Below are positions 2,087 through 51,977 of a DNA stretch of 64,000 nucleotides, one piece after another. Where the stretch lies: the NCBI GenBank assembly GCA_963752285.1, contig CAVVXN010000001.1:101990-165989 (forward strand), written 5' to 3'. The notes below the pieces were generated by a model. That model made no database searches and was not told where the DNA came from. It was given only the letters and a program-made list of their open reading frames with translations. Every line of letters begins with the position of its first letter. The stretch's first letter is position 1. The position numbers and the translations under genes are program-made. The stretch is from an uncultured Planctomycetota bacterium (lineage in GTDB: Bacteria; Planctomycetota; PLA2; JAEUHO01).

Positions 2087-2196
2087 CCGGGCGGTGCGGG
2101 CCTGAAGAGCGAAAATCTGGGTCGGGAGTGGATCGATCGGGCCGGGCGGTGCGGGCCTGAAAGTCGATAATCTGGGTCGGGAGTCGATCGATGCGG
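2087..2196. repeat. Tandem ~55-bp duplication, each copy carrying a REP-like unit (2108-2131 and 2163-2186)
   Basis: Copies at 2087-2141 and 2142-2196 both begin ccgggcggtgcgggcctgaa and are about 48/55 identical by hand alignment. The second copy runs into the ATG at 2191. Confidence 0.85.
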
Positions 2197-4080
2197 ATGC
2201 GGGTGGTTGTTGTCTTTCTGCTCGTTCTCGGGGCGTCCGGTGCGGCCGGTGCGCCCGACGGCTCGCCGGTGGGCGCGCGCCTGTCGGTGTTCGGCGAGGG
2301 CGGCGGTCCGGCGGTCGAGGGCGACGTCTTCCACCTGCTCGACGCGGCGAAGTCCCCGCGGCAGTCGAACGCGCTGGCCTTCGACCGCGCCGACGAGGGC
2401 GCGCGGGACCGCGTGACCCTCCGGTGCCGGATGCGCGTCCTCGCGGGGGGTGACGGCGGCTCGTACCTCTTCCTGAACACGGCGGAATACGGCGTCCGCG
2501 GCCCCGCGCCGTTCCTGCCGAGCGTCGTGGAGCCGAACCTCCGCCGCTCGTTCGCGGTGGGTATCGACGTCCACGACCCGCCGAGCCAGGAGGTGTTCAC
2601 CCCGTGGGGCAACTACCAGGACCTCCCGCAACGCGAGGTCTCGCTCCACTGGGACGGGCGCGAGATCGTGAAGCGCGTCTCGCCCGAAGAGTTCCGCGGC
2701 GACGACGCGGAGGTGGAGATCACGCTCCGGATGGTCGTCGGCGGGGCCGAGGCGACGGTGCGAATCGGCGAGGGCACCGTCTACGACGCCTACTTCGTGC
2801 CCGGCGTCACGCCCTACGAGACACGCCTCGCGATCGCGGCCGGCACGCGTTCCGACGCCACGACGACCTTCGACGTCTCCGACGTGGCGTTCACCGTCGG
2901 GGCGCCGGCGCGGCCGACACGCCGGCCGCACCACGTCGCGGTCTTCAACCACGTCCTCACGGACAACCGGAAGACCGCGTTCGACGAGGAGGTCACGCTC
3001 CCCCCCGCGGAGTTCGCGTTCGGCCGCGTGCTCATGACGATCGACATCCACGACGCCGGACCCGACTGGGACGAGTGGGACCGGAACGGCGAGGTCTCGG
3101 TCTGGACGAAGGACGGCGAGAAGCTCCCGATCGTCTCCTTCATCACGTCGTACCGAACGCCGTGCCACTGGGTGGTGGACGTCACACACCTCCGCCCGCT
3201 CCTCTCCGGCACGACCCGACTCGAGATCGCGGCGGGGACGACCTTCTACAAGAACCGCGGCTTCATGATGAGCCTGGCGCTCGATTTCTGTCCCGGCACC
3301 GCGGACCCCGAGCCCTGGCGCGTGGTCCCGGTGTGGGTCGGGACCGCGCACCATGGACCGCCGGACAACCACTTCCAGGACTTCTTCGTCCCGCGGACCG
3401 TCGCGATCCCCGCGGAGGCGACGGCGGCCCGGCTCGTCGTGACGACGACGGGCCACGCCCAGGTCGGCGAGTTCACGCCCTCGCGCCGCACGATCGTCTT
3501 CACCCCCGACGTCGCCGCCTCCCCATCGGTCGAGCGCCGCTTCGAGAGCGCCCTCTGGAAGACCGACTGCTACCTGAACCCGAACCGCCCCCAGTTCGGG
3601 ACCTGGCAGTTCTCGCGCGCCGGGTGGGCCCCGGGCGACGTCGTCCGGCCGTGGTGGATCGACCTGGCGCCCGACCTCCAGCCGGGCAAGGAGGCCGGGC
3701 TCCGATACGAGACCCAGGCGTACGACTTCTCGGGGCAGGACGAGAAGCCGACGGAGAAGCAGGTCGCCGAGGCCTCACAGGTGGTCCGCGCGTACCTGAT
3801 CCTGTACCGCGCCCCCTCCGCGCAGGTCACCCCCCCCACCCTCCTCGTCGCCGACGTGGCCAGGGGCAGCCACGCCGAGGGCGCCGGCGTACAGGCGGGG
3901 GACTACCTCTCGTCGTACGACGGGAAGCCCGTGGACTCGCTCGACGACCTCCGCGCTGCGCTGAAGGCCGCGGAGGCCGCGGGAGAGAAGGAGGTCCGGA
4001 TCGTGCTCTACCGCGGCGCCGAGCGGGTGGAGCTGACCCTGCCACCGGGCCGCATGGGCGTCAGCCTCACGGGGGAATGA
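2191..4080 (+). CDS. Secreted multidomain protein: jelly-roll/lectin-like N-terminal region, PNGase F-like central region, C-terminal PDZ domain
   Basis: Track ORF of 629 aa with signal peptide MRMRVVVVFLLVLGASGAAGA. The motifs HDAGPDWDEWDRNGEVSVW...SFITSYRTPCHWVVDVTHL and CYLNPNRPQFGTWQFSRAGWAPGDVV recall the two PNGase F-type domains. The C-terminal GVQAGDYLSSYDGKPVDSLDDL...VRIVLYRGAERVELTL is PDZ-like. Confidence 0.6.
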   Translation: MRMRVVVVFLLVLGASGAAGAPDGSPVGARLSVFGEGGGPAVEGDVFHLLDAAKSPRQSNALAFDRADEGARDRVTLRCRMRVLAGGDGGSYLFLNTAEYGVRGPAPFLPSVVEPNLRRSFAVGIDVHDPPSQEVFTPWGNYQDLPQREVSLHWDGREIVKRVSPEEFRGDDAEVEITLRMVVGGAEATVRIGEGTVYDAYFVPGVTPYETRLAIAAGTRSDATTTFDVSDVAFTVGAPARPTRRPHHVAVFNHVLTDNRKTAFDEEVTLPPAEFAFGRVLMTIDIHDAGPDWDEWDRNGEVSVWTKDGEKLPIVSFITSYRTPCHWVVDVTHLRPLLSGTTRLEIAAGTTFYKNRGFMMSLALDFCPGTADPEPWRVVPVWVGTAHHGPPDNHFQDFFVPRTVAIPAEATAARLVVTTTGHAQVGEFTPSRRTIVFTPDVAASPSVERRFESALWKTDCYLNPNRPQFGTWQFSRAGWAPGDVVRPWWIDLAPDLQPGKEAGLRYETQAYDFSGQDEKPTEKQVAEASQVVRAYLILYRAPSAQVTPPTLLVADVARGSHAEGAGVQAGDYLSSYDGKPVDSLDDLRAALKAAEAAGEKEVRIVLYRGAERVELTLPPGRMGVSLTGE

Positions 4081-6439: not shown

Positions 6440-8215
6440 CTAGTCGAGCACCTCCCCGTCCGCGTCGGGGAGGTGTCCCCGGTCCGAGCTCATCGGCGAC
6501 GACTCCGCAGCATCGAGCAGGACGTCCACGACGAACGGGCCCTTGGCCGCCAGCGCCCGCTCGAGCGAAGGGGCGAGATCCGTCTCCGACGTGACCGTCG
6601 CACCATCCGCGCCCAGGCTCCGCGCGAACGCGACGAAGTCCGCTCGCGGGATCTCCGTCTCCCCGGGCGCGGAAACGTCCGCGCGGACGCTCGTCGCGGA
6701 GGCACGCCGACGGGCCTCGTTCAGCACGATCCACACGGCACGCGCCCCCGCGCCGAGGGCCGTCCGGATCTCCTGCCCCTCGAGCATCGAGCGCTCGTCC
6801 ACCACCGCGACGGCCGGGCCACCCCGGCCGAGGGCCGCGCCGACCACGCCACACGCCATGCGTCCTCGCGAGCCGGCTGTCGCGCCCGCGCGGTAGCGCC
6901 GCGGTCGATCGAAGCGGAGGTGATGGTTCGCCCACGCGAACGCGGGACCCGACTCGGACAGCACGACCGCGTCACTGCGCTCGACCACGACGTGCTGCAC
7001 CGCATCCATCAACGCCTGCGGTCGGACCGCGCCCTCCTCGCGGAGATCGACGGCGAGAGGATGGACCGGGAGGGAGGACCGCGGCGAAGGCCCGGCCTCG
7101 CGAAGACACGGCAGGAGCTCCCGCAGGAAGGCGCTCACGTCCGCCTGGATCCCGAACGTGGGTACGTGCGGGTAGGCGGCGCCGAACACCGCCGGGTCGA
7201 GGTCCACGTGCACGACGCCGCCGGGCGGGACGCGCCGGCGATCCCACTGCGACGTGAGCTCGCCGAGCCGCGTACCGAGAACGAGCAGGCGTCCGGGCCG
7301 CTCCCGTTCCAGGAACGAGAGGGCCGACGCATGCCCGCCGACTCCCGTGACCCCCACGAAGAGCGGGTGGGACTCGGGGAACACGCCCTTTCCGCGCGGC
7401 GAGCACATCACGCCGGCTCCGGTCCGCTCGGCCACGGACCGCACGAGTGGCGACGCGTCGCGCGCGCCGGCCCCGACCCAGATCGCGAACCCCGCCCTCT
7501 GCAGGAGCAGAGCGGCGCGACGCGCGTCCGCGTGGGCCACCGAGGGAACCGCGACGTCGATCGGCGCGTCGAGCGAGAGGGCCACGCGATGCGCGTCCAC
7601 GGAACGCGCCTGGCTCGACGTCGGGACGGAGACGTGGGCGACGAAGCGATGCCGCCCGGCCAGGCCGACGAGCAGGCGTCGAACGACCTCGGGCAGGTCG
7701 TCGCCTCCCAACACCGGCACGGCGAGGTCGAAGAGGTGCGTGTCGTGAAGCGCCCCCTGGACCGCGGCGTACGGGCTCGTCTCCCCGGCGGCGCCGCGTC
7801 CCCACTTCGAGACGCCCGTCGAGGACGAGAGCAGGACGAGCTTCGCGCGGTCCGCGCGGGCCGCGGCCACCCCGGGCAGGGCCTCGAGGACACCGTGGTC
7901 CGCGGCGACCACGACCGCCGCGGGCCTGCCCGTCGCGTGGTGGTGCTCGAGCGCGGCGAACACCGCGCCGCCGGCGTCGCGCAGCGGCACGAAGTCGATC
8001 GCCGAGCGCGCGACCGCTTCGTAGAGCGGGCCGCGCGTCCCGTCCCGGGCCCCGAACACGCGCCCGACCCCTGCGCGGCGCAGCCCCTCGACCAGCGCCG
8101 CCGCGACCGTGACGGTCCGCGCCGGTGCCCCCCGAGACGGCTCGGCTCGACCCGTCTCCCGTTCCCGGCCTGGCCGCGCTCGCGTATCGAGGGAGTCCGT
8201 ACGGGTCACCGACAT
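6440..8215 (-). CDS. Thiamine-diphosphate enzyme fold protein (acetolactate synthase-like), with divergent cofactor motifs
   Basis: Track ORF of 591 aa. AAGGAG lies 8 nt upstream of the ATG at 8215. It has the three-domain ALS-like layout, but GDG..NN reads VDE..NE and the usual HE reads RD (by-eye alignment). Confidence 0.65.
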   Translation of the reverse strand: MSVTRTDSLDTRARPGRERETGRAEPSRGAPARTVTVAAALVEGLRRAGVGRVFGARDGTRGPLYEAVARSAIDFVPLRDAGGAVFAALEHHHATGRPAAVVVAADHGVLEALPGVAAARADRAKLVLLSSSTGVSKWGRGAAGETSPYAAVQGALHDTHLFDLAVPVLGGDDLPEVVRRLLVGLAGRHRFVAHVSVPTSSQARSVDAHRVALSLDAPIDVAVPSVAHADARRAALLLQRAGFAIWVGAGARDASPLVRSVAERTGAGVMCSPRGKGVFPESHPLFVGVTGVGGHASALSFLERERPGRLLVLGTRLGELTSQWDRRRVPPGGVVHVDLDPAVFGAAYPHVPTFGIQADVSAFLRELLPCLREAGPSPRSSLPVHPLAVDLREEGAVRPQALMDAVQHVVVERSDAVVLSESGPAFAWANHHLRFDRPRRYRAGATAGSRGRMACGVVGAALGRGGPAVAVVDERSMLEGQEIRTALGAGARAVWIVLNEARRRASATSVRADVSAPGETEIPRADFVAFARSLGADGATVTSETDLAPSLERALAAKGPFVVDVLLDAAESSPMSSDRGHLPDADGEVLD

Positions 8216-8385
8216 GGCCGTCGCTCCTTTGGAGAAGGACCTGGACCTGCGTCAGGGGGTGGCCGCGGCGCGCGCGGAGTTACCTCGGGGCGACCCGGAC
8301 GCGCCGTCGGCCCCGTACAATCGGGCCCGGCCGGCGTCGGGGGCGGCCCGGGGTCGGGCGGGTGGAGGCCGGTGGAGATCGGACC

Positions 8386-9312
8386 ATGGGGCCCCTCGGA
8401 GCCTCGGGGCGCGACGACGACGCCCGACGCGAGACCTTCGCGGCGGGACTTCGCGAGGCGATGTCCCTCTGGGGCCCGTTCGAGCTCCCCCCCGAGCGAT
8501 TCGAGGAGGAGGCCACGACGCGGATCCGACGGCGCCTAGAGCGGTCGGGAGCCGACGCGACGTCCGAGGCGGTCCGAGGCGCGCTCGCGCGGACGTCCCT
8601 CCCCGACCTCGCGCTCGCCGTGGCCTGCTCCGACGGCGCTTCCGGATCGTGGGACACCCTGGTCGGCCGGCTCACGCCTCGACTCGTCGGGCTCGCCCAG
8701 GCGCGCGGAGCGTCGGGCGCCGAGGCGCGGGTCCTCGCGGCCGACGTGCTCTCCGAGATGTCGATCCCCGCCAGCGGCGGCCGGGTTCGGAGGCTCATCG
8801 ACACGTACGAGGGCGCCGGAAGCCTGTTCGGCTGGGCGGCGGTGATCCTCGTGCGCCGGCTCCACCGAGCGCGGCACCGCGACGCCGCACGGGCCGGCCA
8901 CGCGACCGCCGAGGCGACCGGACGAGAGTCTCGAGCTTCCCATGGCGCCGACCCGGCGGCGGTGGCCGCGGGGGCCGAAGCGGTCGCGAGTTTTCGCCGC
9001 GCGCTCCAGGCCGCGTGGACCGCCCTCTCGGGGCGCGAGCGGCTCGCCCTCTCGTGGCGCTACCTCGACGGGATCCCGCAGACCCGGATCGCGACGCTGC
9101 TCCGGGTGAGCGAGCCGCACACGAGCCGCATCGTGACGGGCGCCGTGGCGCGCCTGCGAACCGGCCTCGAGCGGGCGCTCGGCCACGAGGCGAACGGGCC
9201 GGAGGGCGCATGGCCCGCGCTCGTCGAGGTTCTTCGCGCCCAGATGGTATCCGCGAGGCCCGTGCCGCCACTCCCTACGGGGGAGGCTCCCCCCGCACGA
9301 GGTCCCCGATGA
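8386..9312 (+). CDS. ECF-type sigma-70 family RNA polymerase sigma factor (long form)
   Basis: In track ORF 8125..9312; start MGPLGASG at 8386. Region 4 is LSGRERLALSWRYLDGIPQTRIATLLRVSEPHTSRIVTGAVARLR. The region 2-like segment is ...LIDTYEGAGSLFGWAAVILVRRL. Confidence 0.75.
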   Translation: MGPLGASGRDDDARRETFAAGLREAMSLWGPFELPPERFEEEATTRIRRRLERSGADATSEAVRGALARTSLPDLALAVACSDGASGSWDTLVGRLTPRLVGLAQARGASGAEARVLAADVLSEMSIPASGGRVRRLIDTYEGAGSLFGWAAVILVRRLHRARHRDAARAGHATAEATGRESRASHGADPAAVAAGAEAVASFRRALQAAWTALSGRERLALSWRYLDGIPQTRIATLLRVSEPHTSRIVTGAVARLRTGLERALGHEANGPEGAWPALVEVLRAQMVSARPVPPLPTGEAPPARGPR

Positions 9313-10331
9313 CGATCGACGCCGATTCCCGTGACGCGTTCCTGGTGGATCAGGCCACGAGGGCCGACGCCGGTCCCTGCCCCGACGCGAGCGTGGTCGC
9401 CGGCCTCGTCGAGGGGGCGCTGCTCGACGACGAGGGGGAGCGCGTCGCCGCGCACGCGGCCCTGTGCCCGGCATGTCGGGAGGCGATCGTGGTCCTGGCC
9501 GAGGCCGGCGAGGGCGACGTGCGGTCCCGTGCGCCCAGGCCCGCGCCCGCCCCGCGCGCGCGGCCCCGCCCGCGGCGGCTCCCACCCCGCCGGCTCGTCG
9601 CGATCGCCGCCCTCGTCCTCGTCGGGGTCGGCGCCCTCGCGCTCCTCGCCCACGCCCCCACCGAGAGCGACGCGCACGCCGGCACCGACGCCCGCCTCCT
9701 CGCCGCCGCGCGGGACCTCGCGTCGGCCGACCCGGGCCTCTTCGCGCGCTTCACGCCCCTCACGCACGACGAGCGGACCGCGGCCCGCGGCGTCCGCGAG
9801 CGCGGCGGGCTCGTGCTCCTCGGGCCGCGGGAGGTCGTGCTCTCGGACCGCCCCGCGTTTCGCTGGGAGACGGTCCCGGGATCGACGCGCTACGAGGTGA
9901 CGGTCCTGGGGGCCGACGACCGGCCGATCTGGACCCGGGCCGCGACCGGCACGAGCCTCCCCTATCCCGACGACGAGCCCGCCTTGGAGGCGGGCACGCG
10001 CCACGCGTGGGCGCTCTCGACACAGGGCGTCCTCGGCGGGCGTACCGAGTCGCGCGCCACGTTCACCGTCGCCTCGCCCGACCAGGCTGACGCCTTCGCG
10101 CGCGCCCGGCGCGCGATCACGGACCGCGCGCCCGCCGATCTGGCCGCGCTCCTCTGTGCGCACTGGGCGCTCCGGCACGGTCTCCTCGACGAGGCCGAGC
10201 AGCTCGCGAACGCGGCGCTGGCCGACGATCCCGACGACGACGCGCGCGTGGAGACGCTCCGCGCGGTCCTGCGCCGGCGCGGCGCGAGCACCACGGGCGC
10301 GGCCCGGGGGTCCGGGGCGGGAACGCGATGA
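9309..10331 (+). CDS. Anti-sigma factor (zf-HC2), single-pass membrane protein with extracytoplasmic domain
   Basis: Frame of track ORF 8109..10331 from MTIDADSRDAF. ATGA overlap with the sigma gene stop. HAALCPAC is an H-x3-C-x2-C motif. The TM segment is LVAIAALVLVGVGALALLA. An FN3-like then helical C-terminal region follows. Confidence 0.75.
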   Translation: MTIDADSRDAFLVDQATRADAGPCPDASVVAGLVEGALLDDEGERVAAHAALCPACREAIVVLAEAGEGDVRSRAPRPAPAPRARPRPRRLPPRRLVAIAALVLVGVGALALLAHAPTESDAHAGTDARLLAAARDLASADPGLFARFTPLTHDERTAARGVRERGGLVLLGPREVVLSDRPAFRWETVPGSTRYEVTVLGADDRPIWTRAATGTSLPYPDDEPALEAGTRHAWALSTQGVLGGRTESRATFTVASPDQADAFARARRAITDRAPADLAALLCAHWALRHGLLDEAEQLANAALADDPDDDARVETLRAVLRRRGASTTGAARGSGAGTR

Positions 10332-13300
10332 CGCGCCGCGCGGCCCGGTCCCTGGCCCTCCTCGTCACCGTGGCCCTCGCAGTGCTGGGCGGGCCCCCGG
10401 CGGCGGCCGGCGAGTCTTCGCGCTCCAACGTGAAGCTCGACCAGGCCGCATTCCGGTTCGTGAAGGCCTTCTCGGACGGCGACGAGGACGCGATGCGCGC
10501 CGTGGCCGAGGACCGCTCGTACGACGCCCGAAGCCTCGCCGACCGGATGCTCGCGCTCTACGAGTACGCGTGGACTCGGTCCTCGCCGCGGCAGAAGGTC
10601 ATCATGGACGCGATCGGCGCCTACGCGGAGCGCGCCCGCTCGCGGCCCGAGGTGCGGGGACTGCCCCAGGTCGTCGCGGCCTGGGCCCTCCTCGCGCCGA
10701 AGGACCTGGCGCGAAACCAGTGGTTGCGCGGGATCGTGGACCAGGTGCACCAGGCGGAGGACCGGACGGAACCGGCGAAGGTCCTCGAGATCCTCGCGAC
10801 GGCGAAGTCCGCGCTGGCCGTGCAGCCGCCCACCCTGTCGGTGCTCGTGTTGCGCGAGTCCGAGGCCCGCGCCCTCCGGAGCACGGGTCGCCTGGACGAG
10901 GCGGTCGCCGCCTGCGGGCGGGCGAAGGACGTCGCCGAGGCGCTCCGCTCGCCTCGGGACGAGGCCTACTGCCTCGAGCTGCTCGGCCTGGTCCAGGCCC
11001 GCGCCAACCGGACCGCCGAGGCGGCGGCGGCGTACGAGGAGGCGCTGGCGATCCGGGAGGACTTCGGGCCCCCGAGGAACGCGACGTGGGTGCGGGTCGA
11101 GCTCTGCCGCGCGTGGTCCGAGCTCGGGAGGCTCGCCGACGCGCTCGCGGTCGGCGAGCGTGCGCTGAGCGACCAACGCGACCTCGGCGACCCGGATCTC
11201 CTCGGGCGGAACCTCTTCGTGCTCGCGTGTGCGCGGCGCGACCTCTTCGATCCCGCGGGCGCGCGGGACCTCTACGAGCGGGCCGCCGCGGCGTACCGAA
11301 CCGCCAAGGACGACCTGGCCTCGGCGACGGCCCTCTCGGGCTCCGCGTGCATGCGCCTGACGAACCCGGCGCGCGACCTCGACGGCGCGAAGGAGCGATA
11401 CGAGCAGGTTCTCGCGACCGCGAAGGCCCACGACGACGCGTACCTCGCGCTCCTGGCCACGTACGGGCTCGGCAGCACGGCGCGGGACCGCGGCGACACT
11501 CGGGAGGCCGTCGAGCTCCACGAGCGCGCCCTCGCCATGGCGACCGATCAGCAGAAGCAGGACATCGCCATGTACGTCCTCGCCGCCCTCGGCTCCGACC
11601 ACCTGGTGCGCGGCGAGCCGAAGGCGGCCGTGGACGCGCTCGAGCGCGCCATCCGGATCGCGGACGAGATGCACTTCCCCCAGCGACGGCTCGGGATCAC
11701 GCACCGTCTCCTCGCGCGGGCCTACCACGAGAGCGGTCGTCCGCACGACGCCGTGGTGGCCGCCGAGGCCGGGCTCGTGCTGCGGCGGGACCGGGCGCGG
11801 GAGCTCGGAGAGGGCTTCAGCGCCACGGAGCAGGCGGGGGTCCGGGCGACCGCGGACACGGGCATCCTGGCCGCCCTCCGCTGGGTCGCGCGCGAGCCGC
11901 GGGCGCGCGCGGACGCGGCCGCCGCCGCCTTCCTCCTCTCCGAGGCGGCGCGCGCCGAGTTCCTCGCCGACCGGCTGATCGACGCGGGCGACCCGATCGA
12001 GACGCGGGAGGAGCGCGCGGAGCAGGAGTCCGCACGCCGGAGGCTCGACGACGCGAGACGGAGCGTCCTCCTCCTCGCGTTCGGCGAGGCGCGGGACGAC
12101 GCGGCCCTCGCGGCCGCGAAGAAGGCGTACGAGGAGGCGGGCGCCCGGCTCCGCGAGCTCCGCGCGCGCGCCGACCTGCGTCGCGACACGGCGCGCGGGG
12201 GCGCGGACCCGGTCTCGCTCGAGGAGGCGCAGCGGGCGCTGCCCGAGGGCACGGCCCTCGTCTTGTACCAGGTCACCTACGAGCGGCTCGTGGCCGTGGT
12301 CGTCACGCGCGGGGGCGCGGACCTGGTGGACCTGGGCGAGCCCGCCCCGGTGATCGAGGCGTCGAAACGATGGCTCGACGCGATCGCGTCTCCGGACGGG
12401 GAGGAGGGCGACCTGCCCGAGACCCTGTACGACGCGCTCGTCGGACCGCTCGCGTCGCGCCTCACGGACGCGCGAACGCTCCTCGTCGGTCGCGACGGCC
12501 CCCTCGAGTACCTCCCCTTCGAGGCGCTGGTCCATCGGGAGGACGGGCGCCCGCGACGCGCCGTCGAGCGGTGGACGATCTCGTACGTGCCCTCGGCGAC
12601 CGTCTACGCGACGCTCGAGAGCCGTGCCGACTCCGCGCCCCCGCGGGACTCGCTCGTCGCCCTGGGCGACCCCGTGTATCCCGGCGAGACCGGTCGGCCG
12701 GACGCGGAGCGGAGCGTGGCGCGCACGCGCGGGCTCGCGAGCCTCGATCGGCTGTTCGCGAGCGGCGACGAGGTCCGGGCGGTCGCGGCGCGCTTCGCCC
12801 CCGCCCGTCGGACGGTCCTCCTTCGCGAGGACGCGACGCGTGCGCGCCTCGCCGACGCCGTCCGGGCCGACGGGAACCGGCTCCGCGTCCTCCACCTCGC
12901 GTGCCACGGCTTCGTGGACGAGCGGATTCCGTACGGCTCCGGCCTCGTCCTCTCCGGGGCCGACGTTTTGAGCGTGGACGACGTGTCCCGGATGCGCCTG
13001 TCCGCGGACGTCGTCGTGCTCTCCGCCTGCGAGAGCGGCCGGGGCCGGGCGCGGGTGGGCGAGGGGATCCTCGGCCTGCCGCGCGCGTTCCTCACCGCGG
13101 GGGCGACGCGCGTGGTCGCGGCGGACCGCGCCATCGCCGACGAGGACGCGCGCGACCTCCTGTCCCGGTTCTACGACGCGTATCTCGACGGCGGTCTCGC
13201 CCCCGCGGCCGCCCTCCGCGCGGCCAAGCTCCAGCGCATCCGCGCGGGCGGCCCCGCGGCGCACCCGTACGCCTGGGCGGGCCTCGTGCTCTGGGAGTGA
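10328..13300 (+). CDS. Secreted TPR-repeat CHAT-domain protease
   Basis: Track ORF of 990 aa. ATGA overlap with the anti-sigma gene. Signal peptide MTRRAARSLALLVTVALAVLGGPPAAAG, then multiple TPR-like helices. The C-terminal CHAT domain has VLHLACHG (His) and VVVLSACESG (Cys). Confidence 0.8.
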   Translation: MTRRAARSLALLVTVALAVLGGPPAAAGESSRSNVKLDQAAFRFVKAFSDGDEDAMRAVAEDRSYDARSLADRMLALYEYAWTRSSPRQKVIMDAIGAYAERARSRPEVRGLPQVVAAWALLAPKDLARNQWLRGIVDQVHQAEDRTEPAKVLEILATAKSALAVQPPTLSVLVLRESEARALRSTGRLDEAVAACGRAKDVAEALRSPRDEAYCLELLGLVQARANRTAEAAAAYEEALAIREDFGPPRNATWVRVELCRAWSELGRLADALAVGERALSDQRDLGDPDLLGRNLFVLACARRDLFDPAGARDLYERAAAAYRTAKDDLASATALSGSACMRLTNPARDLDGAKERYEQVLATAKAHDDAYLALLATYGLGSTARDRGDTREAVELHERALAMATDQQKQDIAMYVLAALGSDHLVRGEPKAAVDALERAIRIADEMHFPQRRLGITHRLLARAYHESGRPHDAVVAAEAGLVLRRDRARELGEGFSATEQAGVRATADTGILAALRWVAREPRARADAAAAAFLLSEAARAEFLADRLIDAGDPIETREERAEQESARRRLDDARRSVLLLAFGEARDDAALAAAKKAYEEAGARLRELRARADLRRDTARGGADPVSLEEAQRALPEGTALVLYQVTYERLVAVVVTRGGADLVDLGEPAPVIEASKRWLDAIASPDGEEGDLPETLYDALVGPLASRLTDARTLLVGRDGPLEYLPFEALVHREDGRPRRAVERWTISYVPSATVYATLESRADSAPPRDSLVALGDPVYPGETGRPDAERSVARTRGLASLDRLFASGDEVRAVAARFAPARRTVLLREDATRARLADAVRADGNRLRVLHLACHGFVDERIPYGSGLVLSGADVLSVDDVSRMRLSADVVVLSACESGRGRARVGEGILGLPRAFLTAGATRVVAADRAIADEDARDLLSRFYDAYLDGGLAPAAALRAAKLQRIRAGGPAAHPYAWAGLVLWE

Positions 13301-13543
13301 GCGCGCCGGCTGCGCCGCGCGCCGCGGACCGCGCGCGTCCCGACGCCGGCATCGACGACCCGACGACGCTGCGTCCCCCCACCGGAGGCGCCTCGCTTGC
13401 GACGCCTCGATGCACCGGGGCCTCTGCCCGTCGGGGTGAACGGAAGCGGCATTCGGCGCGATCTCGTTCCTGCTGCGGAAGGGCGTCGATGCGGGCACGC
13501 AGGCGTGTCTCACCGGTGAGGACCGCCGCCCCGGCCGGGTGGG

Positions 13544-14428
13544 TCAACGGTAGAGGATCGAGAGGAGCACCAGGCGCTCCCCGTGGCGCAGAGGCTCTCG
13601 CGCGTGGACCACCCCGCACTCCATGGCGACGGCGGAGCCCGGCTCGATCTCGTGCCGGTGGACCGCGCCGCGCGGGCCGTACGTCAGGAGCGCCGAGCCC
13701 GAGGAAGACCCGTTCGGCAGCGCGCGGTCCACGCACACGAGCAGGTTCACGGTGAAGCCCGGGTCGTCGGCGTGGGGCCACGTGTGGTCGCGCGGCTTCG
13801 TGTAGTAGAGGTACTTCGCGACGAGACCCGGCGAGACGTCGCGCCCCACGGCGCGGGCTACGGCGCGGCAGAGTCGGGCATCGACGGCGAGCTCGCACCC
13901 TCGCCGTCCGGGCCGCCGGCCACTCGCGACGCGCCCGACGCGAAGGCCCCGCGAGGCGTCGCGTCGAAGGGCGTGGAGCCGCCGCGCGTCGAGCCCGGGG
14001 AGCGCGTCGAGCGGCACGACGGCGGTGGGGTAGCCGATCCCGAAGAAGTGCACCAGCGCGTTCCAGCCCGCGCGCAGCACGGGATCGGTCGGGACGCGAC
14101 CGTCCGGGGCGAGCCCGGTCGGCGCGTACTGGAGCAGGATGCGGAGCGGACGGTCCGCGCCGGCCCCGCGACGCTCGATCGTCCGCGCGAGGCGGCGCGC
14201 GAGGCGGAGCGCCGTCCGGCCCCAGGTGGCCCGCGGTCCCGCCGCGCGTCGCCACGCGGCGGCGTGGGTACGGAGGACGCGGACCCGCGGGTCCCGCCGG
14301 CCCGAGACGTGGCGCAGGTTGATGTCGTCCTCGGGCAGGCGGTACGCGAGCTCGCCCGCGGTCAGGAGCAGGTCGAGGAGCGCCCGGGCGGGCGGGTCGT
14401 CGCAGAACGCCTCCCGGGCGCGGGGCAC
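13544..14428 (-). CDS. 2OG-Fe(II) oxygenase-like (double-stranded beta-helix) protein
   Basis: Track ORF of 294 aa. WPHADDPGF (HxD), GVVHAREPL (distal His) and GERLVLLSILY (possible 2OG-binding Arg). The start codon is uncertain (GTG at 14428). Confidence 0.55.
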   Translation of the reverse strand: MPRAREAFCDDPPARALLDLLLTAGELAYRLPEDDINLRHVSGRRDPRVRVLRTHAAAWRRAAGPRATWGRTALRLARRLARTIERRGAGADRPLRILLQYAPTGLAPDGRVPTDPVLRAGWNALVHFFGIGYPTAVVPLDALPGLDARRLHALRRDASRGLRVGRVASGRRPGRRGCELAVDARLCRAVARAVGRDVSPGLVAKYLYYTKPRDHTWPHADDPGFTVNLLVCVDRALPNGSSSGSALLTYGPRGAVHRHEIEPGSAVAMECGVVHAREPLRHGERLVLLSILYR

Positions 14429-14508
14429 CGCGTCGCGGAAGGGCAGGGAGTAGCGGATCGCCGCGGTGGGGCGCGCGAGCCGCCCCCGCGGAGCATCGAA
14501 GCCTACGA

Positions 14509-14628
14509 CTACTGCTCCTGCCCCAGCGAGGCGCGGCCCCCCTTGACCTTGGCGGCGTCCGCCTTGCGAACGGGCAGGTCCTTGGGGCTCTTCGCGGACG
14601 CGTTCTTGCTCGGCTTCTTCGAGGGCAT
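14509..14628 (-). CDS. Small Lys-rich protein (39 aa) with KVKGG double-glycine motif; candidate exported peptide precursor
   Basis: Below the track length cut-off. ATG at 14626-14628 and TAG at 14509-14511. GGAGGA lies 6 nt upstream. 38 of 39 sense codons end in G/C. Product: MPSKKPSKNASAKSPKDLPVRKADAAKVKGGRASLGQEQ. Confidence 0.6.
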   Translation of the reverse strand: MPSKKPSKNASAKSPKDLPVRKADAAKVKGGRASLGQEQ

Positions 14629-14712
14629 CACCGATCCTCCGGGTTGGGGTGGCGACTACTATGTCAATCCCCGCGGCGGCGGCAAGGCCCTGGGCGTGGA
14701 GGTGAGAGGCGC

Positions 14713-15690
14713 TTGGCCGAACCCGAGCTCGAACCGCCCGCGGCGCTCACGGCCACGGTCTTCGAGATCGCCGGACGGCCGGTCACGGTGCGAGACGTGG
14801 TTCGTGCGGCGGACGCACGAGGGGCCCTCGACGACGCCAAAGGCCGATTCGTCGCGGGCCTCGAGGCCGAGGCGCGGGCCCGGGAGGCCGGGGAGGCCCC
14901 CCCCGACGACGCCGTCGAGGCGCGCGCGAACGAGATCCGGTACGAGCGCAACCTGATCACCGCCGAGGAGGCGGAGTCGTGGCTTTCGGCCCGGGGTCTC
15001 ACGTACGACGCGCTCCTCGATCACTGTCGTCGCGAGCTCCTCCGGGAGGCCGAGGCCGCTGTGGCCGACCGCGCGAGAGGCCTCGTACCGCCCGAACGCG
15101 AGGCCGACTTCCTCGCCTACCTCGTGTTCTCGGGCGAGCTCGATGGCCAGGCGCGGGAGCTGGCGCGACGCCTCGTGGTGAGCGACCCGGACGGGGACCT
15201 CTCGCCCGACCGCCTGCGGTCGGTGGAGGCGTCCTACCGACGACACCTGTCGGCGCTCACGGCGGAGCGGGAACGCGAACGCGTCCTGGCCCTCCTGCGC
15301 CTCCCCTTGACGCGGGTGGACGTCGAGGTCCTCGACGCGCCTTCGCTCGACGCGGCGCGGGAGGTCGTCCTGTGCCTTCGCCAGGACGGCGCCGACACCG
15401 CGGCGCTCGCGGCGGAGACCGGGTACCCCCACGCGCGGGCTTCGCCGTTCCTGGACGACCTCGAGGACGACGTGCGCGACGCGCTCCTCTCCGCGGCGCC
15501 CGGCGACGTGCTGGAACCGGTCGAGGAGCCCCCGCGCGTGCGCGTCTTCCGCCTGCGCTCGAAACGCGAGCCGACGCTCGAAGACCCCGAGGTGCGCGAG
15601 CGCGTGGACCAGCGGATCGTCGACGCGCACTTCGCCGAGCGGGTCGCGCGGACCGTGAGGTGGCGGCTCTCGGACGAGCGGAACCGATGA
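14713..15690 (+). CDS. PpiC/parvulin-like C-terminal domain protein, possible peptide-maturation accessory protein
   Basis: Track ORF 14644..15690. The preferred start is TTG at 14713, after GGAGGTGA. The C-terminus ...DAAREVVLCLRQDGADTAALAAETGY...APGDVLEPVEEPPRVRVFRLRSK... is parvulin-like but degenerate. The stop overlaps the exporter start (ATGA). Confidence 0.55.
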   Translation: MAEPELEPPAALTATVFEIAGRPVTVRDVVRAADARGALDDAKGRFVAGLEAEARAREAGEAPPDDAVEARANEIRYERNLITAEEAESWLSARGLTYDALLDHCRRELLREAEAAVADRARGLVPPEREADFLAYLVFSGELDGQARELARRLVVSDPDGDLSPDRLRSVEASYRRHLSALTAERERERVLALLRLPLTRVDVEVLDAPSLDAAREVVLCLRQDGADTAALAAETGYPHARASPFLDDLEDDVRDALLSAAPGDVLEPVEEPPRVRVFRLRSKREPTLEDPEVRERVDQRIVDAHFAERVARTVRWRLSDERNR

Positions 15691-18600
15691 GCGAGCTCCT
15701 CCGAGAGAGCCCCCTCGAACGCACGGTCTTCCGGTTCCTCGGCGCCGGGGCCCGCGCCGCCCTGCTCGAACGGTTCACCCCGTGCCGCTTCGCGTTCGGC
15801 GACGTCGTCGTACGCCAGGGCGAGGAGGCCGACGCCTACTACGTGATGACGGAGGGACGTGCGCGGGTCCTCCGCACGACCGAGACGGGCGAGGAGATCT
15901 CGCTGCGGGTCCTCCGGACGGGGGACGAGTTCGGCGAGGCCGCGCTCTCGCCCGGCGGCGCGCGGTCGGCCACGGTTCGGTGCAGCAGCCGCGTCGAGGT
16001 CCTCCGCCTCGAACGGACCGCGTTTCTCGCCCTGGCCCACGAGAACCCCGCGATCCGTCACGCGGTCGAGATCGCGGCCCGGTTCAAGACGCTCCACGGG
16101 TTCCTGTACGAGTTCAGCAACTTCGGCCGCCTGTCGGCGCCGTGCGTCCAGCGGTTGGTGGAGAGCCTCGAGCCCGAGCCGCGCGCGCGCGGCGAGGTCT
16201 TCCTCCGCGAGGGCGACCCGCCCGGCCCGATGTACGTGATCCAGCAAGGCCGCGTCCGGCTCTTCACGACCCGCGGCGGTCGCGAGCACAACCTCGCATT
16301 CCGGCGGGAGGGCGAGTTCTTCGGCGAGATGTCCGCCTTGAGCGGCACGCCGCGGTCCGCGTCCGCCGAGGCGACGACCGACACCGTGCTCCTCGCGCTT
16401 CGACCGCAGGCGGTGAACCGCCTCCGGGAGGAGTTCCCGGATCTCGGCCGCCTGCTCGAAGAACGCATCGCCCAGTACCGGTCCGACGAGGCCGCGCGCG
16501 TACCGCTCGACTTCGCCACCGAGATGCTGCCGGCGGACGCGTCCGTCGAGAACAAGGTCGGCCTGGACCTCGAGGACGAGACGCCCGCCCCCGGTCCCGA
16601 CGCCGCGGCGGTGAAGGTCCCGCGCCTGCGGCGTCGGTTCCGGTCCTTCCCCTACGTCGCGCAGATCGACGAGATGGACTGCGCCGCCGCGGCACTCGCC
16701 ATGGTCTGCCGCCACCACGGGCGCAAGGTGGCGCTGCCCCGCATCCGCGAGCTGTGCCAGACCTCCACCGACGGCACGAGCCTCAAGGCGATCTGCCACG
16801 CCGCCCGCGAGCTGGGCCTGGCGGCGCGCGCGGCGAAAGTGTCCGCGCGCGAGATCGACGGCCTGCCGCTGCCGGCGATCGCCCATTGGGAGGGGAACCA
16901 CTGGGTCGTCGTGCACGCGGTGGACCGCGGCCACGTCCACGTCGCCGATCCCGCGCAGGGCCTCCGCAAGATCGACCGGCGCGCGTTCCTCGAACGCTGG
17001 ACCGGCTACGCCGCCCTCTTCGACTACACGACCGCCTTCGAGCACGCCCCCGAGGGCCGGCCGGCGCTCTCCTGGATCTGGCCCTTCTTCGGACGCCACC
17101 GCGCGGTCCTCGTGAAGGTGCTCCTCCTCGCCGGTGTCGTCAGCGCGCTCCAGCTCGTCCTGCCGCTCCTCACGCAGACGGTGATCGACTCCGTGATCGT
17201 CGGCAAGGACGTGAGCCTCCTCGCGACCATCATGCTCGGCATCGGCGCGGCCCTCGTGTTCATGGTCCTCGCGAGCGTCGTCCAGCAGTACCTGCTCGCC
17301 TACGCGGCGGTGCGCATCGACTCGGCGATCCTCGACTTCCTGACGCGCCGGCTGCTCGCGCTCCCGATGCGGTACTTCCAGACCCGGCGCACCGGCGACA
17401 TCCAGCGTCGCCTGGACGGCGCGGAACAGATCCGGGAGCTCGTGGTCCAGCACGGCATCGGCAGCGTCCTCGCGATCGTGCTGCTCCTCGGCTGCCTCGG
17501 GCTGATGTTCGCGTACAGCGCGACCCTCGCGCTCGCCTTCCTCGCGGTTGCGCCGCTGTACGGCGTGCTGGTCTGGCTGTCGGTGCGCTTCTTGAAGCCC
17601 ATCCTCGCCGACCTCGAGGCGAGCCGCGGCCGGTACCGGGCGCACCAGATCGACGCGATCAAGGGCATCGAGGCGGTGAAGGCCGCGTCCGCCGAAGGCG
17701 CGTTTCGCGACGCGATGCTCTCGCAGTTCCTCTCGGTCACCCGGCAGATGTTCCGCGGAACGTTCTTCTTCATGGGCTACGACAGCGCGATCCAGACGCT
17801 CAGCGTGGTCGCGACGGCCCTCTTCCTCTGGGTCGGCGCCCGCCAGGTCCTCTCGGGCGCGATGTCCGTGGGCGGGTTCGTCGCGTTCAACACCCTCGCG
17901 ATGATGGCGAACGCCTCGATCCTCCGGCTGCTCCAGTCGTGGGAGAAGGCGCTCTCGGCCTCCGTCCTCCTCCACCGGCTCGAGGACGTGGTCGCGCAGG
18001 AGCCCGAGCAGGGCAGCGACCACGCGCGGCTCCGGCCCGTCCCGAGCCTCGAGGGCCGGATCGAGCTCCGGGGCGTCGGCTTCCGCTACGGCGGGCCCGA
18101 GTCCCCGCGCATCCTCCAGGACGTCACGCTGGACGTGCCCGCCGGGCAGAGCCTCGCGCTCGTGGGACGGAGCGGCTGCGGCAAGACGACCCTCGTGAAG
18201 CTCGTGGCCGGGCTCCTCGAGCCGACGGAGGGCACGATCCTCTTCGATCGCATGGACCTCGCGACGCTCGACCACGCCGCGCTCCGCCGCCACGTCGGCA
18301 TCGTCCTCCAGGAGAACCACGTCTTCGACGGGTCGATCCGCGACAACATCGCGTTCGGCGATCCCGACCCGGACCTCGGCCGCGTGCTCTGGGCCGCGCG
18401 CATGGCGAACGCCCACGAGTTCGTGATGCGGCTGCCGCTGGGCTACGAGACACGCGTCGGCGAGTCGGGCCTCGCGCTCTCGGGGGGCCAGAAGCAGCGT
18501 GTCGTGATCGCCCGCGCGCTGTACGCCGATCCCGCGGTCCTGATCTTCGACGAGGCGACCAGCGCGCTCGACTCCGAGTCCGAGCGCGCCATCCAGGAGA

Positions 18601-18785
18601 GCATGGGCCAGCTTCTCGCGGGCCGGACGTCGCTCGTCATCGCCCACCGCCTCTCGACGATCCGCGACGCCGACCGGATCGTCGTCCTCGAGCGGGGGAA
18701 GATCGCCGAGGAGGGCACACACGACGAGCTGATGGCGCTCCGCGGCCTCTACTTCCACCTCTCGAGCCAGCAGGCGACGGGCTGA
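15687..18785 (+). CDS. ABC exporter with two N-terminal cyclic-nucleotide-binding domains and a C39 peptidase domain (bacteriocin/GG-peptide exporter type)
   Basis: In track ORF 14979..18785 from MSELLRESPL. There are two CAP_ED-like domains (FGEAAL..RSATVRC and FGEMSAL..RSASAEA). The C39 domain has QIDEMDCAAAALAMV (Cys) and NHWVVVHAV (His). A six-TM ABC membrane domain follows. The NBD has GRSGCGKTT, LSGGQKQR and LIFDEATSALD. Confidence 0.85.
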   Translation: MSELLRESPLERTVFRFLGAGARAALLERFTPCRFAFGDVVVRQGEEADAYYVMTEGRARVLRTTETGEEISLRVLRTGDEFGEAALSPGGARSATVRCSSRVEVLRLERTAFLALAHENPAIRHAVEIAARFKTLHGFLYEFSNFGRLSAPCVQRLVESLEPEPRARGEVFLREGDPPGPMYVIQQGRVRLFTTRGGREHNLAFRREGEFFGEMSALSGTPRSASAEATTDTVLLALRPQAVNRLREEFPDLGRLLEERIAQYRSDEAARVPLDFATEMLPADASVENKVGLDLEDETPAPGPDAAAVKVPRLRRRFRSFPYVAQIDEMDCAAAALAMVCRHHGRKVALPRIRELCQTSTDGTSLKAICHAARELGLAARAAKVSAREIDGLPLPAIAHWEGNHWVVVHAVDRGHVHVADPAQGLRKIDRRAFLERWTGYAALFDYTTAFEHAPEGRPALSWIWPFFGRHRAVLVKVLLLAGVVSALQLVLPLLTQTVIDSVIVGKDVSLLATIMLGIGAALVFMVLASVVQQYLLAYAAVRIDSAILDFLTRRLLALPMRYFQTRRTGDIQRRLDGAEQIRELVVQHGIGSVLAIVLLLGCLGLMFAYSATLALAFLAVAPLYGVLVWLSVRFLKPILADLEASRGRYRAHQIDAIKGIEAVKAASAEGAFRDAMLSQFLSVTRQMFRGTFFFMGYDSAIQTLSVVATALFLWVGARQVLSGAMSVGGFVAFNTLAMMANASILRLLQSWEKALSASVLLHRLEDVVAQEPEQGSDHARLRPVPSLEGRIELRGVGFRYGGPESPRILQDVTLDVPAGQSLALVGRSGCGKTTLVKLVAGLLEPTEGTILFDRMDLATLDHAALRRHVGIVLQENHVFDGSIRDNIAFGDPDPDLGRVLWAARMANAHEFVMRLPLGYETRVGESGLALSGGQKQRVVIARALYADPAVLIFDEATSALDSESERAIQESMGQLLAGRTSLVIAHRLSTIRDADRIVVLERGKIAEEGTHDELMALRGLYFHLSSQQATG

Positions 18786-42648: not shown

Positions 42649-42805
42649 CGCGCGTCAAGGTAGCCCATCGACCTCGTCGCGGCTCCATCCGTGTCCGGAG
42701 GGACCGGCGCCTGGCCGTGCCGCCCCGCCTCCGGGACCTCGTCCCGCGCCTCTCCCACCACGGGTCGCCTCCGCGCGGGTGGTAGGATTGGGTTCAGGCT
42801 CCAGG

Positions 42806-51890: not shown

Positions 51891-51977
51891 CGCCACCTCC
51901 CGCGAGGAGTGTAGCGACGCGTCTCTTCCCCCGGAACGGGCGCTACCGAAACGGGGACGAAGGGGTATCAAGGAGGG

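What the first reader, a model, noticed from the sequence alone, without database searches (positions are those of the whole stretch)
14509..14628. Unannotated 39-codon Lys-rich ORF with a KVKGG double-glycine motif beside a C39-peptidase exporter
The ORF track omits it because it is shorter than 60 aa.

Coding evidence:
- The minus strand reads ATG (14628) ... TAG (14509-14511).
- GGAGGA lies 6 nt upstream.
- 38 of 39 sense codons end in G/C, the coding signature of this genome.

The product is MPSKKPSKNASAKSPKDLPVRKADAAKVKGGRASLGQEQ. GG occupies residues 30-31, with Val at -4 and -12. This recalls the double-glycine leaders cleaved by C39 peptidase domains; K-[IV]-K-G-G endings occur in some GG-type precursor families. 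Cleavage would leave the octapeptide RASLGQEQ.

An operon encoding an exporter with an intact C39 Cys/His starts 85 nt away on the other strand.

Caveat: the putative leader is Lys-rich rather than the classic LSxxELxxIxGG helix, and the core is very short.
Basis: partly seen in the sequence, partly recalled or inferred. Interest (0 to 1): 0.7.

Follow-up and report, generated by a model that had tools for sequence, protein, structure and literature searches.

The report
Conserved double-glycine precursor peptide gene cassette
The 39-codon reading frame is a real, conserved small gene that most likely encodes the precursor of a short secreted peptide, and it sits in a previously undescribed cassette with an iron/2-oxoglutarate oxygenase, a chaperone-like partner protein and a nucleotide-sensing peptidase exporter.

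Summary
ORF 14509-14628(-) encodes MPSKKPSKNASAKSPKDLPVRKADAAKVKGGRASLGQEQ, with GGAGGA 6 nt upstream and 38 of 39 codons ending in G/C.

It is a real gene. Every homologue of the downstream 294-aa protein that I recovered has the same kind of small ORF just upstream. A profile of these peptides finds about 35 small proteins (33-50 aa). Each has a Lys-rich N-terminus, a [VI]KDLxV[RK]KxxA[DA]KVKGG box and a 6-14 aa tail. L-14, A-7 and V-4 are invariant in the collected set, and position -12 is always V, I or L. This is the spacing that C39 peptidases recognise.

The cassette is conserved in Planctomycetia and Vicinamibacterales (Acidobacteriota):
- the peptide;
- a 294-aa Fe(II)/2OG oxygenase-fold protein with no Pfam family (HxD...H invariant in 67/67; AF2 pLDDT 95.6);
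- a 325-aa distant relative of TIGR04500, the family of MirC, the essential partner protein in rosaritide biosynthesis;
- a cNMP-cNMP-C39-ABC exporter with Gln/Cys/His/Asp intact.

Best reading: a RiPP-like precursor is oxidised by the oxygenase, helped by the partner, then cleaved after G31 and exported. The modification, cleavage and export are inferred. All members found are annotated hypothetical, and I found no paper describing the cassette. I rate it a new variant of a known kind, interest about 0.7.

The parts
14509..14628 (-). Precursor peptide gene: 39 codons plus TAG. Leader is residues 1-31 (14536-14628): a Lys-rich N-terminus, then the conserved box K16-DLPVRKADAAKVK-G30-G31. The putative core is residues 32-39, RASLGQEQ (14512-14535).
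   Evidence: Sequence. A gene caller called it in an independent assembly. Conserved orthologues appear. pN/pS is, the profile family and the position statistics.
14635..14640 (-). Shine-Dalgarno-like GGAGGA, 6 nt before the ATG.
   Evidence: SD-like GGAGG/GGAGGA/GAGGAG/AGGAGA is present upstream in 7 of the 7 orthologues with upstream sequence, except L009.
14655..14667 (-). AT-rich patch TTGACATAGTAGT in the 84-nt divergent intergenic region. It is a candidate promoter element, by inference only.
   Evidence: Aligned TATAAG/TAGAAT-like hexamers lie 35-45 nt upstream of the ATG in L002, L004, L006 and L007. The consensus sigma-70 scan found nothing.
13544..14428 (-). 294-aa Fe(II)/2-oxoglutarate oxygenase-fold protein: an N-terminal helical domain of about 130 aa plus a C-terminal double-stranded beta-helix. 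The metal triad is H219, D221 and H275. It lies 80 nt downstream of the peptide gene on the same strand. The true start may lie upstream of GTG 14428.
   Evidence: No Pfam or NCBIfam hit. 239 representatives at E<=1e-3. H219/D221/H275 are invariant in 67/67. AF2 pLDDT is 95.6. Foldseek hits 2OG oxygenases and prolyl-4-hydroxylase at E 4e-6.
14713..15690 (+). 325-aa SurA/PpiC-like protein, a distant relative of TIGR04500 ('putative peptide maturation system protein'). It is probably a partner or chaperone of the modifying enzyme.
   Evidence: Weak Rotamase_2 hit, E 1e-3 and below cut-off. Homologues in L007, L006, L004, L010 and L015. 3 of 5 family members hit TIGR04500, best E 7.6e-8 and far below the cut-off. 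The MirC precedent is in PMC13097080.
15687..18785 (+). 1032-aa exporter with two cNMP-binding domains, a C39 peptidase, ABC transmembrane and ABC ATPase domains. Its ATG overlaps the stop of the previous gene (ATGA at 15687-15690). The C39 domain spans about 16647-17024.
   Evidence: Pfam. NCBIfam best hits are HlyB, NHLM_micro_ABC1 and bacteriocin_ABC, all below their cut-offs. The alignment to ComA conserves QxxxxDC, H and D. The start was checked.

Best explanation
The ORF encodes the precursor of a small ribosomally made peptide. It is probably modified after translation, and it has a double-glycine leader.

Proposed pathway:
1. The 39-mer is translated from its own SD (shown: ORF, SD, conservation).
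2. Its conserved box KDLPVRKxDAxKVKGG is the recognition element (inferred).
3. The 294-aa Fe(II)/2OG oxygenase encoded 80 nt downstream oxidises the peptide, most likely by hydroxylation. The target residue is unknown, because only the Gly at core position +4 or +5 is common to nearly all tails. The enzyme is assisted by the 325-aa TIGR04500-like protein acting as partner or chaperone, by analogy with MirC.
4. The C39 domain of the divergently encoded exporter cuts after G31, and the ABC moiety exports the 8-residue core RASLGQEQ with its modification. The two cNMP-type domains may gate export in response to a nucleotide messenger, by analogy with HetC, whose domain binds ppGpp in vitro.
5. 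With a core of only 6-14 residues, the product is more likely a signal-type peptide than a pore-forming bacteriocin.

Shown: the gene is real, the family exists, the four-gene linkage is conserved, the oxygenase fold and triad are present, and the C39 catalytic residues are intact. Inferred: modification, cleavage site, export and biological role.
For: Conservation of the gene:
- A small ORF of the same family lies immediately upstream of every recovered homologue of the 294-aa gene: L002/L003, L004, L005, L006, L007, L008 and L009.
- The leader box is under purifying selection, with mean pN 0.20 against pS 0.52. DNA conservation is confined to that box.
- The profile search gives about 35 peptides of 33-50 aa.

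Fit to C39 recognition:
- L-14, A-7, V-4 and GG are invariant. Position -12 is V/I/L in 35/35, and -8 is D/E in 24/35.

Conserved linkage:
- The divergent layout (exporter <- partner | peptide -> oxygenase) occurs in the window and in L007, a Planctomycetia MAG. L004 and L006 show the partner gene.
- The collinear layout peptide -> oxygenase (40-44% id) -> partner (30% id) -> cNMP-C39-ABC (50% id) -> HlyD-like occurs in L010-L013 and L015-L019. That lineage is Vicinamibacterales.

The enzymes:
- Oxygenase.
- C39 catalytic residues.
- Partner protein link to TIGR04500. MirC is required for MirB activity in a BGC that also ends in a PCAT (PMC13097080).
- Precedent for an Fe/2OG hydroxylase acting on a GG-leader precursor, SmaO/SmaA: PMC12186529.
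Against: - There are no expression, mass-spectrometry or cleavage data.
- Position -7 is Ala rather than Leu, and -15 is Asp rather than hydrophobic, so this is not a textbook GG leader.
- The core is very short and has no universally conserved modifiable residue. The Pro common in Acidobacteria-type tails (LGP) is absent from the window's tail.
- No HlyD-type adaptor is in the 64-kb window.
- One peptide-plus-307-aa locus (the P0172 contig) shows no exporter within 5 kb.
- Related leaders occur beside a methyltransferase or a LanB dehydratase instead. The box is therefore a general leader, not proof of this particular pathway.
- The window's own 325-aa protein does not itself reach TIGR04500.
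- The 2OG-binding residue is not identified: R277 is present in 53/67 and R285 in 22/67.
Confidence: 0.7

Rival explanations
1. The gene is real, but the peptide is exported unmodified as a plain double-glycine peptide (pheromone or small bacteriocin). The 294-aa and 325-aa proteins would then serve another role, for example immunity, regulation or an unrelated substrate.
For: GG-type leader and linked C39 exporter. No conserved modifiable residue in the core.
Against: The 294-aa gene is the most tightly linked partner of the peptide. It lies directly downstream in all recovered loci, even where the exporter layout differs. Its N-terminal helical domain is specific to the peptide-linked subfamily. 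TIGR04500 relatives are known as partners of peptide-modifying enzymes (PMC13097080).
Confidence: 0.12
2. The peptide is not secreted. It would be an intracellular substrate, a cofactor precursor (in the manner of PqqA or MftA) or a regulator of the oxygenase, and its closeness to the exporter would be secondary.
For: Tight peptide-oxygenase pairing. One locus has no exporter within 5 kb. The tails share a semi-conserved G-x-E/P pattern.
Against: The exporter with an intact C39 domain is linked in two phyla despite rearrangement from divergent to collinear layout. The GG box matches C39 recognition spacing. No radical-SAM or other cofactor-pathway genes are nearby.
Confidence: 0.1
3. The ORF is a chance frame in GC-rich DNA, or a regulatory upstream ORF whose peptide product has no function.
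For: Short ORFs with high GC3 do occur by chance in this window. No promoter or terminator was found by the consensus scan.
Against: Amino-acid conservation with synonymous change holds across loci of 62-77% GC and across two phyla. An SD is present in nearly all. There is no Rfam element. The spacer hairpin in the window is not significant.
Confidence: 0.03

Closest known systems
Double-glycine leader peptides processed by peptidase-containing ABC transporters (ComC/ComA, LahT substrates, class II bacteriocins and microcins)
   Same: A GG cleavage motif with hydrophobic residues at -4 and -12 and an acidic residue at -8. The gene is linked to an ABC exporter whose C39 domain has catalytic Gln/Cys/His/Asp (PMC6363468).
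   Different: Position -7 is an invariant Ala, -3 and -5 are invariant Lys, and -15 is Asp. The N-terminus is long and Lys-rich. The core is only 6-14 aa. The exporter carries two N-terminal cNMP-type domains. No NCBIfam or Pfam leader model matches.
Rosaritide (mir) gene cluster: MirA precursor, MirB ATP-grasp, MirC (TIGR04500 partner protein), MirD PCAT (PMC13097080)
   Same: The same four-part logic: a precursor with a PCAT cut site, one modifying enzyme, a SurA/PpiC-like partner protein and a PCAT. Homologues of the 325-aa protein reach TIGR04500 at E 1e-7.
   Different: The modifying enzyme here is an Fe/2OG oxygenase-fold protein, not an ATP-grasp ligase. The partner scores 27 bits against a cut-off of 180, so it is a distant relative and not a member. 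The core is far shorter. The exporter has cNMP domains.
SmaA/SmaO: an Fe(II)/2OG Asp beta-hydroxylase acting on a GG-leader RiPP precursor, with a PCAT (PMC12186529)
   Same: A 2OG oxygenase modifies a GG-leader precursor that a PCAT then cleaves. That paper also notes BGCs with a GG precursor and PCAT but no known class-defining enzyme.
   Different: There is no HD-domain SmaX partner and no ATP-grasp here. There is no DG/GD motif in the window's core. The relationship of the 294-aa protein to SmaO was not tested, because no SmaO sequence was at hand.
HetC of Nostoc PCC 7120 (a cNMP-C39-ABC PCAT; PMC10986499)
   Same: The same exporter architecture, with an N-terminal cNMP-type domain that is required for function and binds ppGpp in vitro. 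No adjacent membrane-fusion protein, as in the window.
   Different: HetC's physiological substrate is unknown, and no GG peptide is encoded near hetC. Here a conserved candidate substrate sits next to the exporter. The window's protein has two cNMP domains.
RaxX/RaxST/RaxA/RaxB of Xanthomonas (from my own knowledge, not tested here)
   Same: A short GG-leader peptide receives a single tailoring modification and is then cleaved and exported by a PCAT to act as a signal-like molecule.
   Different: The tailoring enzyme there is a tyrosine sulfotransferase. There is no sequence relationship to the proteins here.

Membership tests
Double-glycine (GG) leader / PCAT substrate | Gly-Gly (or Gly-Ala/Ser) at -2/-1 | tested here: met
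   G30-G31 in the window. GG is present in 35/35 family members collected, though those members were selected with a V[KR]GG pattern. One member (P0164) has GS.
Double-glycine (GG) leader / PCAT substrate | Hydrophobic residues at -4, -7 and -12 and an acidic residue at -8 (ComA consensus L-12 x3 E-8 L-7; LahT pockets for V-4, L-7, L-12) | tested here: met
   V-4 in 35/35, A-7 in 35/35 (small hydrophobic, not Leu), V/I/L at -12 in 35/35 and D/E at -8 in 24/35. Literature read.
Double-glycine (GG) leader / PCAT substrate | Hydrophobic residue at -15 | tested here: not met
   Position -15 is Asp in 30/35. The invariant Leu is at -14.
Double-glycine (GG) leader / PCAT substrate | Genetic linkage to an ABC exporter with a catalytically intact C39 domain | tested here: met
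Double-glycine (GG) leader / PCAT substrate | Cleavage after GG by the C39 domain and export of the core | not testable with these tools
   This needs an in vitro protease assay or mass spectrometry.
RiPP (ribosomally synthesised, post-translationally modified peptide) | Precursor with a conserved leader and a more variable core | tested here: met
   The leader box is near-invariant. Tails are 6-14 aa and variable, with a loose A..(L)G[PE][EP].L pattern.
RiPP (ribosomally synthesised, post-translationally modified peptide) | A co-encoded enzyme that modifies the core | tested here: inconclusive
   An oxygenase-fold protein with a complete HxD...H triad is always adjacent. No modification has been observed.
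Fe(II)/2-oxoglutarate-dependent oxygenase superfamily (the 294-aa protein) | Double-stranded beta-helix fold with an HxD/E...H metal triad | tested here: met
   AF2 pLDDT 95.6. Foldseek top hits 6n1f, 4j25, 4xaa, 7vbr and 7dt0 at E 4e-6 to 2e-5. H219/D221/H275 are invariant in 67/67.
Fe(II)/2-oxoglutarate-dependent oxygenase superfamily (the 294-aa protein) | Membership of a curated Pfam or NCBIfam 2OG family | tested here: not met
   The window protein has no hit. Only 4 of 67 relatives give weak hits to 2OG-FeII_Oxy_3, HalD or TauD.
Fe(II)/2-oxoglutarate-dependent oxygenase superfamily (the 294-aa protein) | Basic residue binding the C5 carboxylate of 2OG | tested here: inconclusive
   R277 (H+2) is present in 53/67 and R285 (H+10) in 22/67. 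No ligand modelling was done.
TIGR04500 (PpiC_rel_mature) peptide-maturation partner proteins (the 325-aa protein) | Score above the NCBIfam cut-off (180 bits) | tested here: not met
   The window protein has no hit at E<=10. Homologues score about 27 bits (E 2e-6 to 8e-8) over profile positions 107-337. It is a distant relative only.
Graspetide group 21 (rosaritide-like) | An ATP-grasp ligase (TIGR04187) in the cluster | tested here: not met
   No ATP-grasp domain is among the genes at 8-21 kb of the window or in the L010/L015 cassettes.
NHLP / Nif11-type leader peptides | Match to the NHLP (TIGR03793) or Nif11 (TIGR03798) leader models | tested here: not met
   No NCBIfam hit for six family peptides at E<=1 to 10.

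The most novel reading that the evidence does not exclude
This would be the founding example of a new RiPP class. Its class-defining enzyme would be an uncharacterised Fe(II)/2OG oxygenase family with its own N-terminal helical domain, working with a TIGR04500-like partner. The product would be an oxidised oligopeptide signal of 6-14 residues. It would also supply the first cognate substrate family for HetC-type, nucleotide-gated cNMP-C39-ABC exporters, whose substrates are so far unknown. The system is present in Planctomycetota and Acidobacteriota.
Probability: 0.45. Interest if true: 0.8.

Novelty: new variant of a known kind. Interest (0 to 1): 0.7.

Why it matters
- cNMP-domain PCATs such as HetC are widespread in Gram-negative bacteria, but their natural substrates are unknown (PMC10986499). 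A conserved peptide encoded next to such an exporter gives a direct, testable substrate candidate.
- The cassette pairs a GG-leader peptide with an oxygenase family that has no Pfam or NCBIfam model. It also includes a relative of the recently recognised MirC-type partner proteins. This extends the partner-protein concept beyond ATP-grasp enzymes.
- It occurs in Planctomycetota and Acidobacteriota, phyla whose peptide signalling and natural products are barely explored.
- It shows that short ORFs below gene-caller thresholds can be recovered by synteny.

Tried and rejected
- A direct homology search with the single 40-aa peptide found only itself. The family became visible only through synteny and then a profile.
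- The first AF2 model, built from a 5-sequence alignment, was useless (pLDDT 48). The 67-sequence alignment gave pLDDT 95.6.
- Sequence searches of PDB with the 294-aa and 325-aa profiles gave only noise.
- The sigma-70 promoter and intrinsic-terminator scan of 13300-15000 found nothing.
- The Rfam scan of 13300-15900 found nothing.
- I tested for an attenuator-type hairpin between the precursor gene and the enzyme gene. It is not significant in the window or in the Planctomycetia-type loci (z 0 to +1.6). It is significant only in the Acidobacteria-type loci L010 (z -2.9) and L015 (z -2.0).
- A composition-only test of short frames with high GC3 and low GC2 is not discriminating. The frames it flags are antisense to real genes, and the ORF's own stop-to-stop frame fell outside the size bin.
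- I rejected prolyl hydroxylation of the core as a general mechanism. Many Acidobacteria-type tails have LGP, but the window's core has no Pro.
- A search for further copies of the peptide in the window found none.
- No HlyD homologue is in the window.
- A literature search for 'KVKGG' and for the cassette's components found no description of this system.

Full report
**1. Observation**

The window is 73.9% GC. On the minus strand, ATG 14628 to TAG 14509-14511 encodes MPSKKPSKNASAKSPKDLPVRKADAAKVKGGRASLGQEQ. GGAGGA lies 6 nt upstream. 38 of 39 codons end in G/C, and GC1/2/3 are 0.62/0.51/0.97, like the neighbouring genes.

In such GC-rich DNA, composition alone is weak evidence. Antisense frames of real genes also show GC3 above 0.9. 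I therefore relied on comparison with other loci.

**2. Surroundings**

Downstream on the same strand, 80 nt away, is a 294-aa gene (13544-14428) with no Pfam or NCBIfam hit.

Divergently, 84 nt away, a 325-aa gene starts (14713-15690; weak Rotamase_2 hit at E 1e-3, below cut-off). Its stop overlaps (ATGA) the start of a 1032-aa exporter (15687-18785). The exporter has two cNMP_binding domains, Peptidase_C39 (E 3.9e-37), ABC_membrane and ABC_tran.

The C39 domain aligns to S. pneumoniae ComA with the QxxxxDC, His and Asp positions conserved.

The flanking genes (CHAT/TPR, GyrI-like, APH) are not conserved partners.

**3. The ORF is a conserved gene**

The exact peptide was called as a gene in an independent assembly (L001). 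The single peptide finds no relatives by direct search.

The 294-aa protein has a few homologues at 49-54% identity. Every one has a small ORF just upstream:

| Locus | Peptide |
|---|---|
| L002/L003 | ...KKAVKDLPVRKADADRVKGGIGNAGEERLR |
| L004 | ...KKAPKDLPVRPNDADKVKGGAGNAGEQHLR |
| L005 | ...ATVKDLRVRKADADKVKGGAVMGWEKPPLR |
| L006 | ...KKIKDLPVRKSDADKVKGGAIMGGENPPLR |
| L007 | ...KPVKDLPVRKTEADKVKGGAASAGHEKLR |
| L008 | ...VKVKDLRLRKEHADKVKGGTTNLGEEPLT |
| L009 | ...MAVKDLRIGKDQANKVRGGVAGTALGSEPL |

- Most have an SD-like sequence upstream.
- Over the 18-codon leader box, mean pN is 0.20 against pS of 0.52, with wobble at third positions.
- DNA conservation is confined to that box.
- There is no Rfam element.
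- A profile of the eight peptides retrieves about 35 small proteins (33-50 aa) of the same design.

**4. Leader anatomy**

The N-terminus is variable and Lys-rich: Lys makes up about 26% of the residues before -17. After it, the box is [VI](-17) K D L(-14) x V(-12) [RK] K x [DE](-8) A(-7) [DA] K V(-4) K G G.

- L-14, A-7, V-4 and GG are invariant in the collected set.
- Position -12 is V/I/L in 35/35.
- Position -8 is acidic in 24/35.

This matches two published descriptions (PMC6363468). One is the spacing ComA needs, L-12 x3 E-8 L-7. [quoted passage not shown]

There are three deviations: Ala at -7, Asp at -15, and invariant Lys at -3 and -5. The Lys positions may reflect recognition by the other cassette proteins.

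Tails are 6-14 aa (median 9) and loosely follow A..(L)G[PE][EP].L. The window's RASLGQEQ resembles AASLGPQQ of the Acidobacteria-type peptide P0175.

**5. Conserved cassette**

The divergent layout of the window recurs in three other loci:
- L007, a Planctomycetia MAG, has the partner at 41% id and the exporter N-terminus at 60% id.
- L006 has the partner gene at 40% id.
- L004 has the partner gene's N-terminus, recognisable by eye.

In L010-L013 and L015-L019 the same genes are collinear:
- peptide (38 aa);
- oxygenase homologue (40-44% id);
- partner homologue (about 30% id);
- cNMP-C39-ABC (50% id);
- HlyD/AprE-like adaptor.

That lineage is Vicinamibacterales, where the proteins are annotated 'hypothetical' (MGE3958125.1 and MGE3958126.1).

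The window itself is probably planctomycetal. It carries a PSD1/PSCyt2 protein at 51915-53543, and its nearest locus is L007.

The four genes therefore stay together across two phyla and through a rearrangement. Exceptions and variants:
- The contig carrying P0172 has the peptide plus a 307-aa gene but no exporter within 5 kb.
- GPCFRPK-tailed relatives sit beside a methyltransferase.
- A weak family member sits near a LanB dehydratase.

The box thus behaves as a general GG-type RiPP leader.

**6. The 294-aa protein**

A profile search finds 239 representatives at E<=1e-3. Only the closest ones share the N-terminal region of about 130 aa. In a 67-sequence alignment, H219, D221 and H275 are the only invariant columns. 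Four of the 67 give weak 2OG-FeII_Oxy_3, HalD or TauD hits.

With this alignment AF2 gives pLDDT 95.6 and pTM 0.92. The model has a helical N-domain and a C-terminal beta-sandwich. Foldseek against PDB returns only Fe/2OG oxygenases, at E 4e-6 and upward and TM(target) 0.5-0.6:
- 6n1f;
- P. putida prolyl-4-hydroxylase (4j25, 4iw3);
- AviO1;
- TlxI;
- a proline hydroxylase;
- EctD;
- HalD.

It is an Fe(II)/2OG oxygenase-fold enzyme of an uncurated family. The chemistry and the target residue are not determined.

**7. The 325-aa protein**

Three of five family members hit TIGR04500 ('putative peptide maturation system protein'). The best E-value is 7.6e-8, at about 27 bits against a cut-off of 180. 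The window's copy does not hit it directly.

A TIGR04500 member, MirC, was recently shown to be an essential SurA-like partner. It co-purifies with the ATP-grasp MirB in the rosaritide cluster, which also contains a PCAT (PMC13097080). By analogy, the 325-aa protein is a partner or chaperone for the oxygenase. This is inference.

**8. Mechanism proposed**

The precursor is oxidised by the oxygenase with the partner's help. It is then cleaved after G31 by the C39 domain, and the 8-residue core is exported. The cNMP domains may gate export, as proposed for HetC. HetC's cNMP domain is essential and binds ppGpp, and its substrate is unknown (PMC10986499).

An Fe/2OG hydroxylase acting on a GG-leader precursor has a precedent in SmaO/SmaA (PMC12186529).

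The rivals are weighed in their own section of this report:
- an unmodified GG peptide;
- an intracellular substrate or cofactor precursor;
- a chance or regulatory ORF.

**9. Novelty**

I found no Pfam or NCBIfam model for the peptide or the oxygenase, and every database name seen was 'hypothetical'. No paper in the searchable library describes the motif or the cassette.

The components belong to known kinds (GG leader, PCAT, 2OG oxygenase, TIGR04500-like partner), but the combination is new. I rate it a new variant of a known kind, with interest 0.7.

Noticed in passing
window 14429-14470 (-): The conserved N-terminus of the 294-aa family (MS-IRLSRPFRASVA in homologues) corresponds in the window to AAIRYSLPFRDAV. 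This lies upstream of the first in-frame start (GTG 14428), and there is no ATG, GTG or TTG in that frame. An ATG at 14496 is in another frame. The independent assembly L001 has the same sequence. The cause could be a non-canonical start, an N-terminal truncation or a frameshift. It is unresolved.
   Followed up: partly
window 15687-15690 (+): The stop of the 325-aa gene and the start of the exporter overlap as ATGA, which suggests translational coupling of partner and exporter.
   Followed up: yes
L010 9700-9845 and L015 1408-1515: In the Acidobacteria-type operons, strong GC-rich hairpins follow the precursor gene (z -2.9 and -2.0 against shuffles), as in many RiPP operons. The Planctomycetia-type loci, including the window, show no such signal.
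   Followed up: partly
proteins P0181, P0183, P0184, P0187, P0188, P0190, P0193 (metagenomic): A sub-family has the same ...DADKVKGG leader but an acidic N-terminus and a Cys-containing tail (AVGPCFRPK or VVGPCDR). One member lies between a 278-aa protein with no Pfam hit and a SAM methyltransferase. It may be a different modification pathway reusing the leader.
   Followed up: partly
L010 17358-19704; L015 8049-10540; L016, L017: A LysR regulator and a PAS-domain histidine kinase are conserved just downstream of the HlyD-like gene in the Vicinamibacterales-type cassettes. They might sense the exported peptide.
   Followed up: no
window 8109-13300 (+): A 740-aa protein (weak zf-HC2 hit) overlaps by 4 nt a 990-aa TPR-CHAT (caspase-like) protein that is convergent on the oxygenase gene. 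This pair is not conserved at the related loci.
   Followed up: no
window 39074-43972: Two tandem ABC exporter genes on the minus strand lack a C39 domain (27-34% id to the PCAT's ABC part). They sit next to a bacterial archaeo-eukaryotic release-factor-like protein (baeRF family 3/7, E 1.7e-49) at 42470-43972.
   Followed up: no
window 51915-53543 (+) and 2161-4080 (+): A PSCyt2/PSD1 (DUF1549/DUF1553) protein, typical of Planctomycetota, supports the taxonomic assignment. Separately, there is a PNGase-F C-terminal domain plus PDZ protein at 2161-4080.
   Followed up: no
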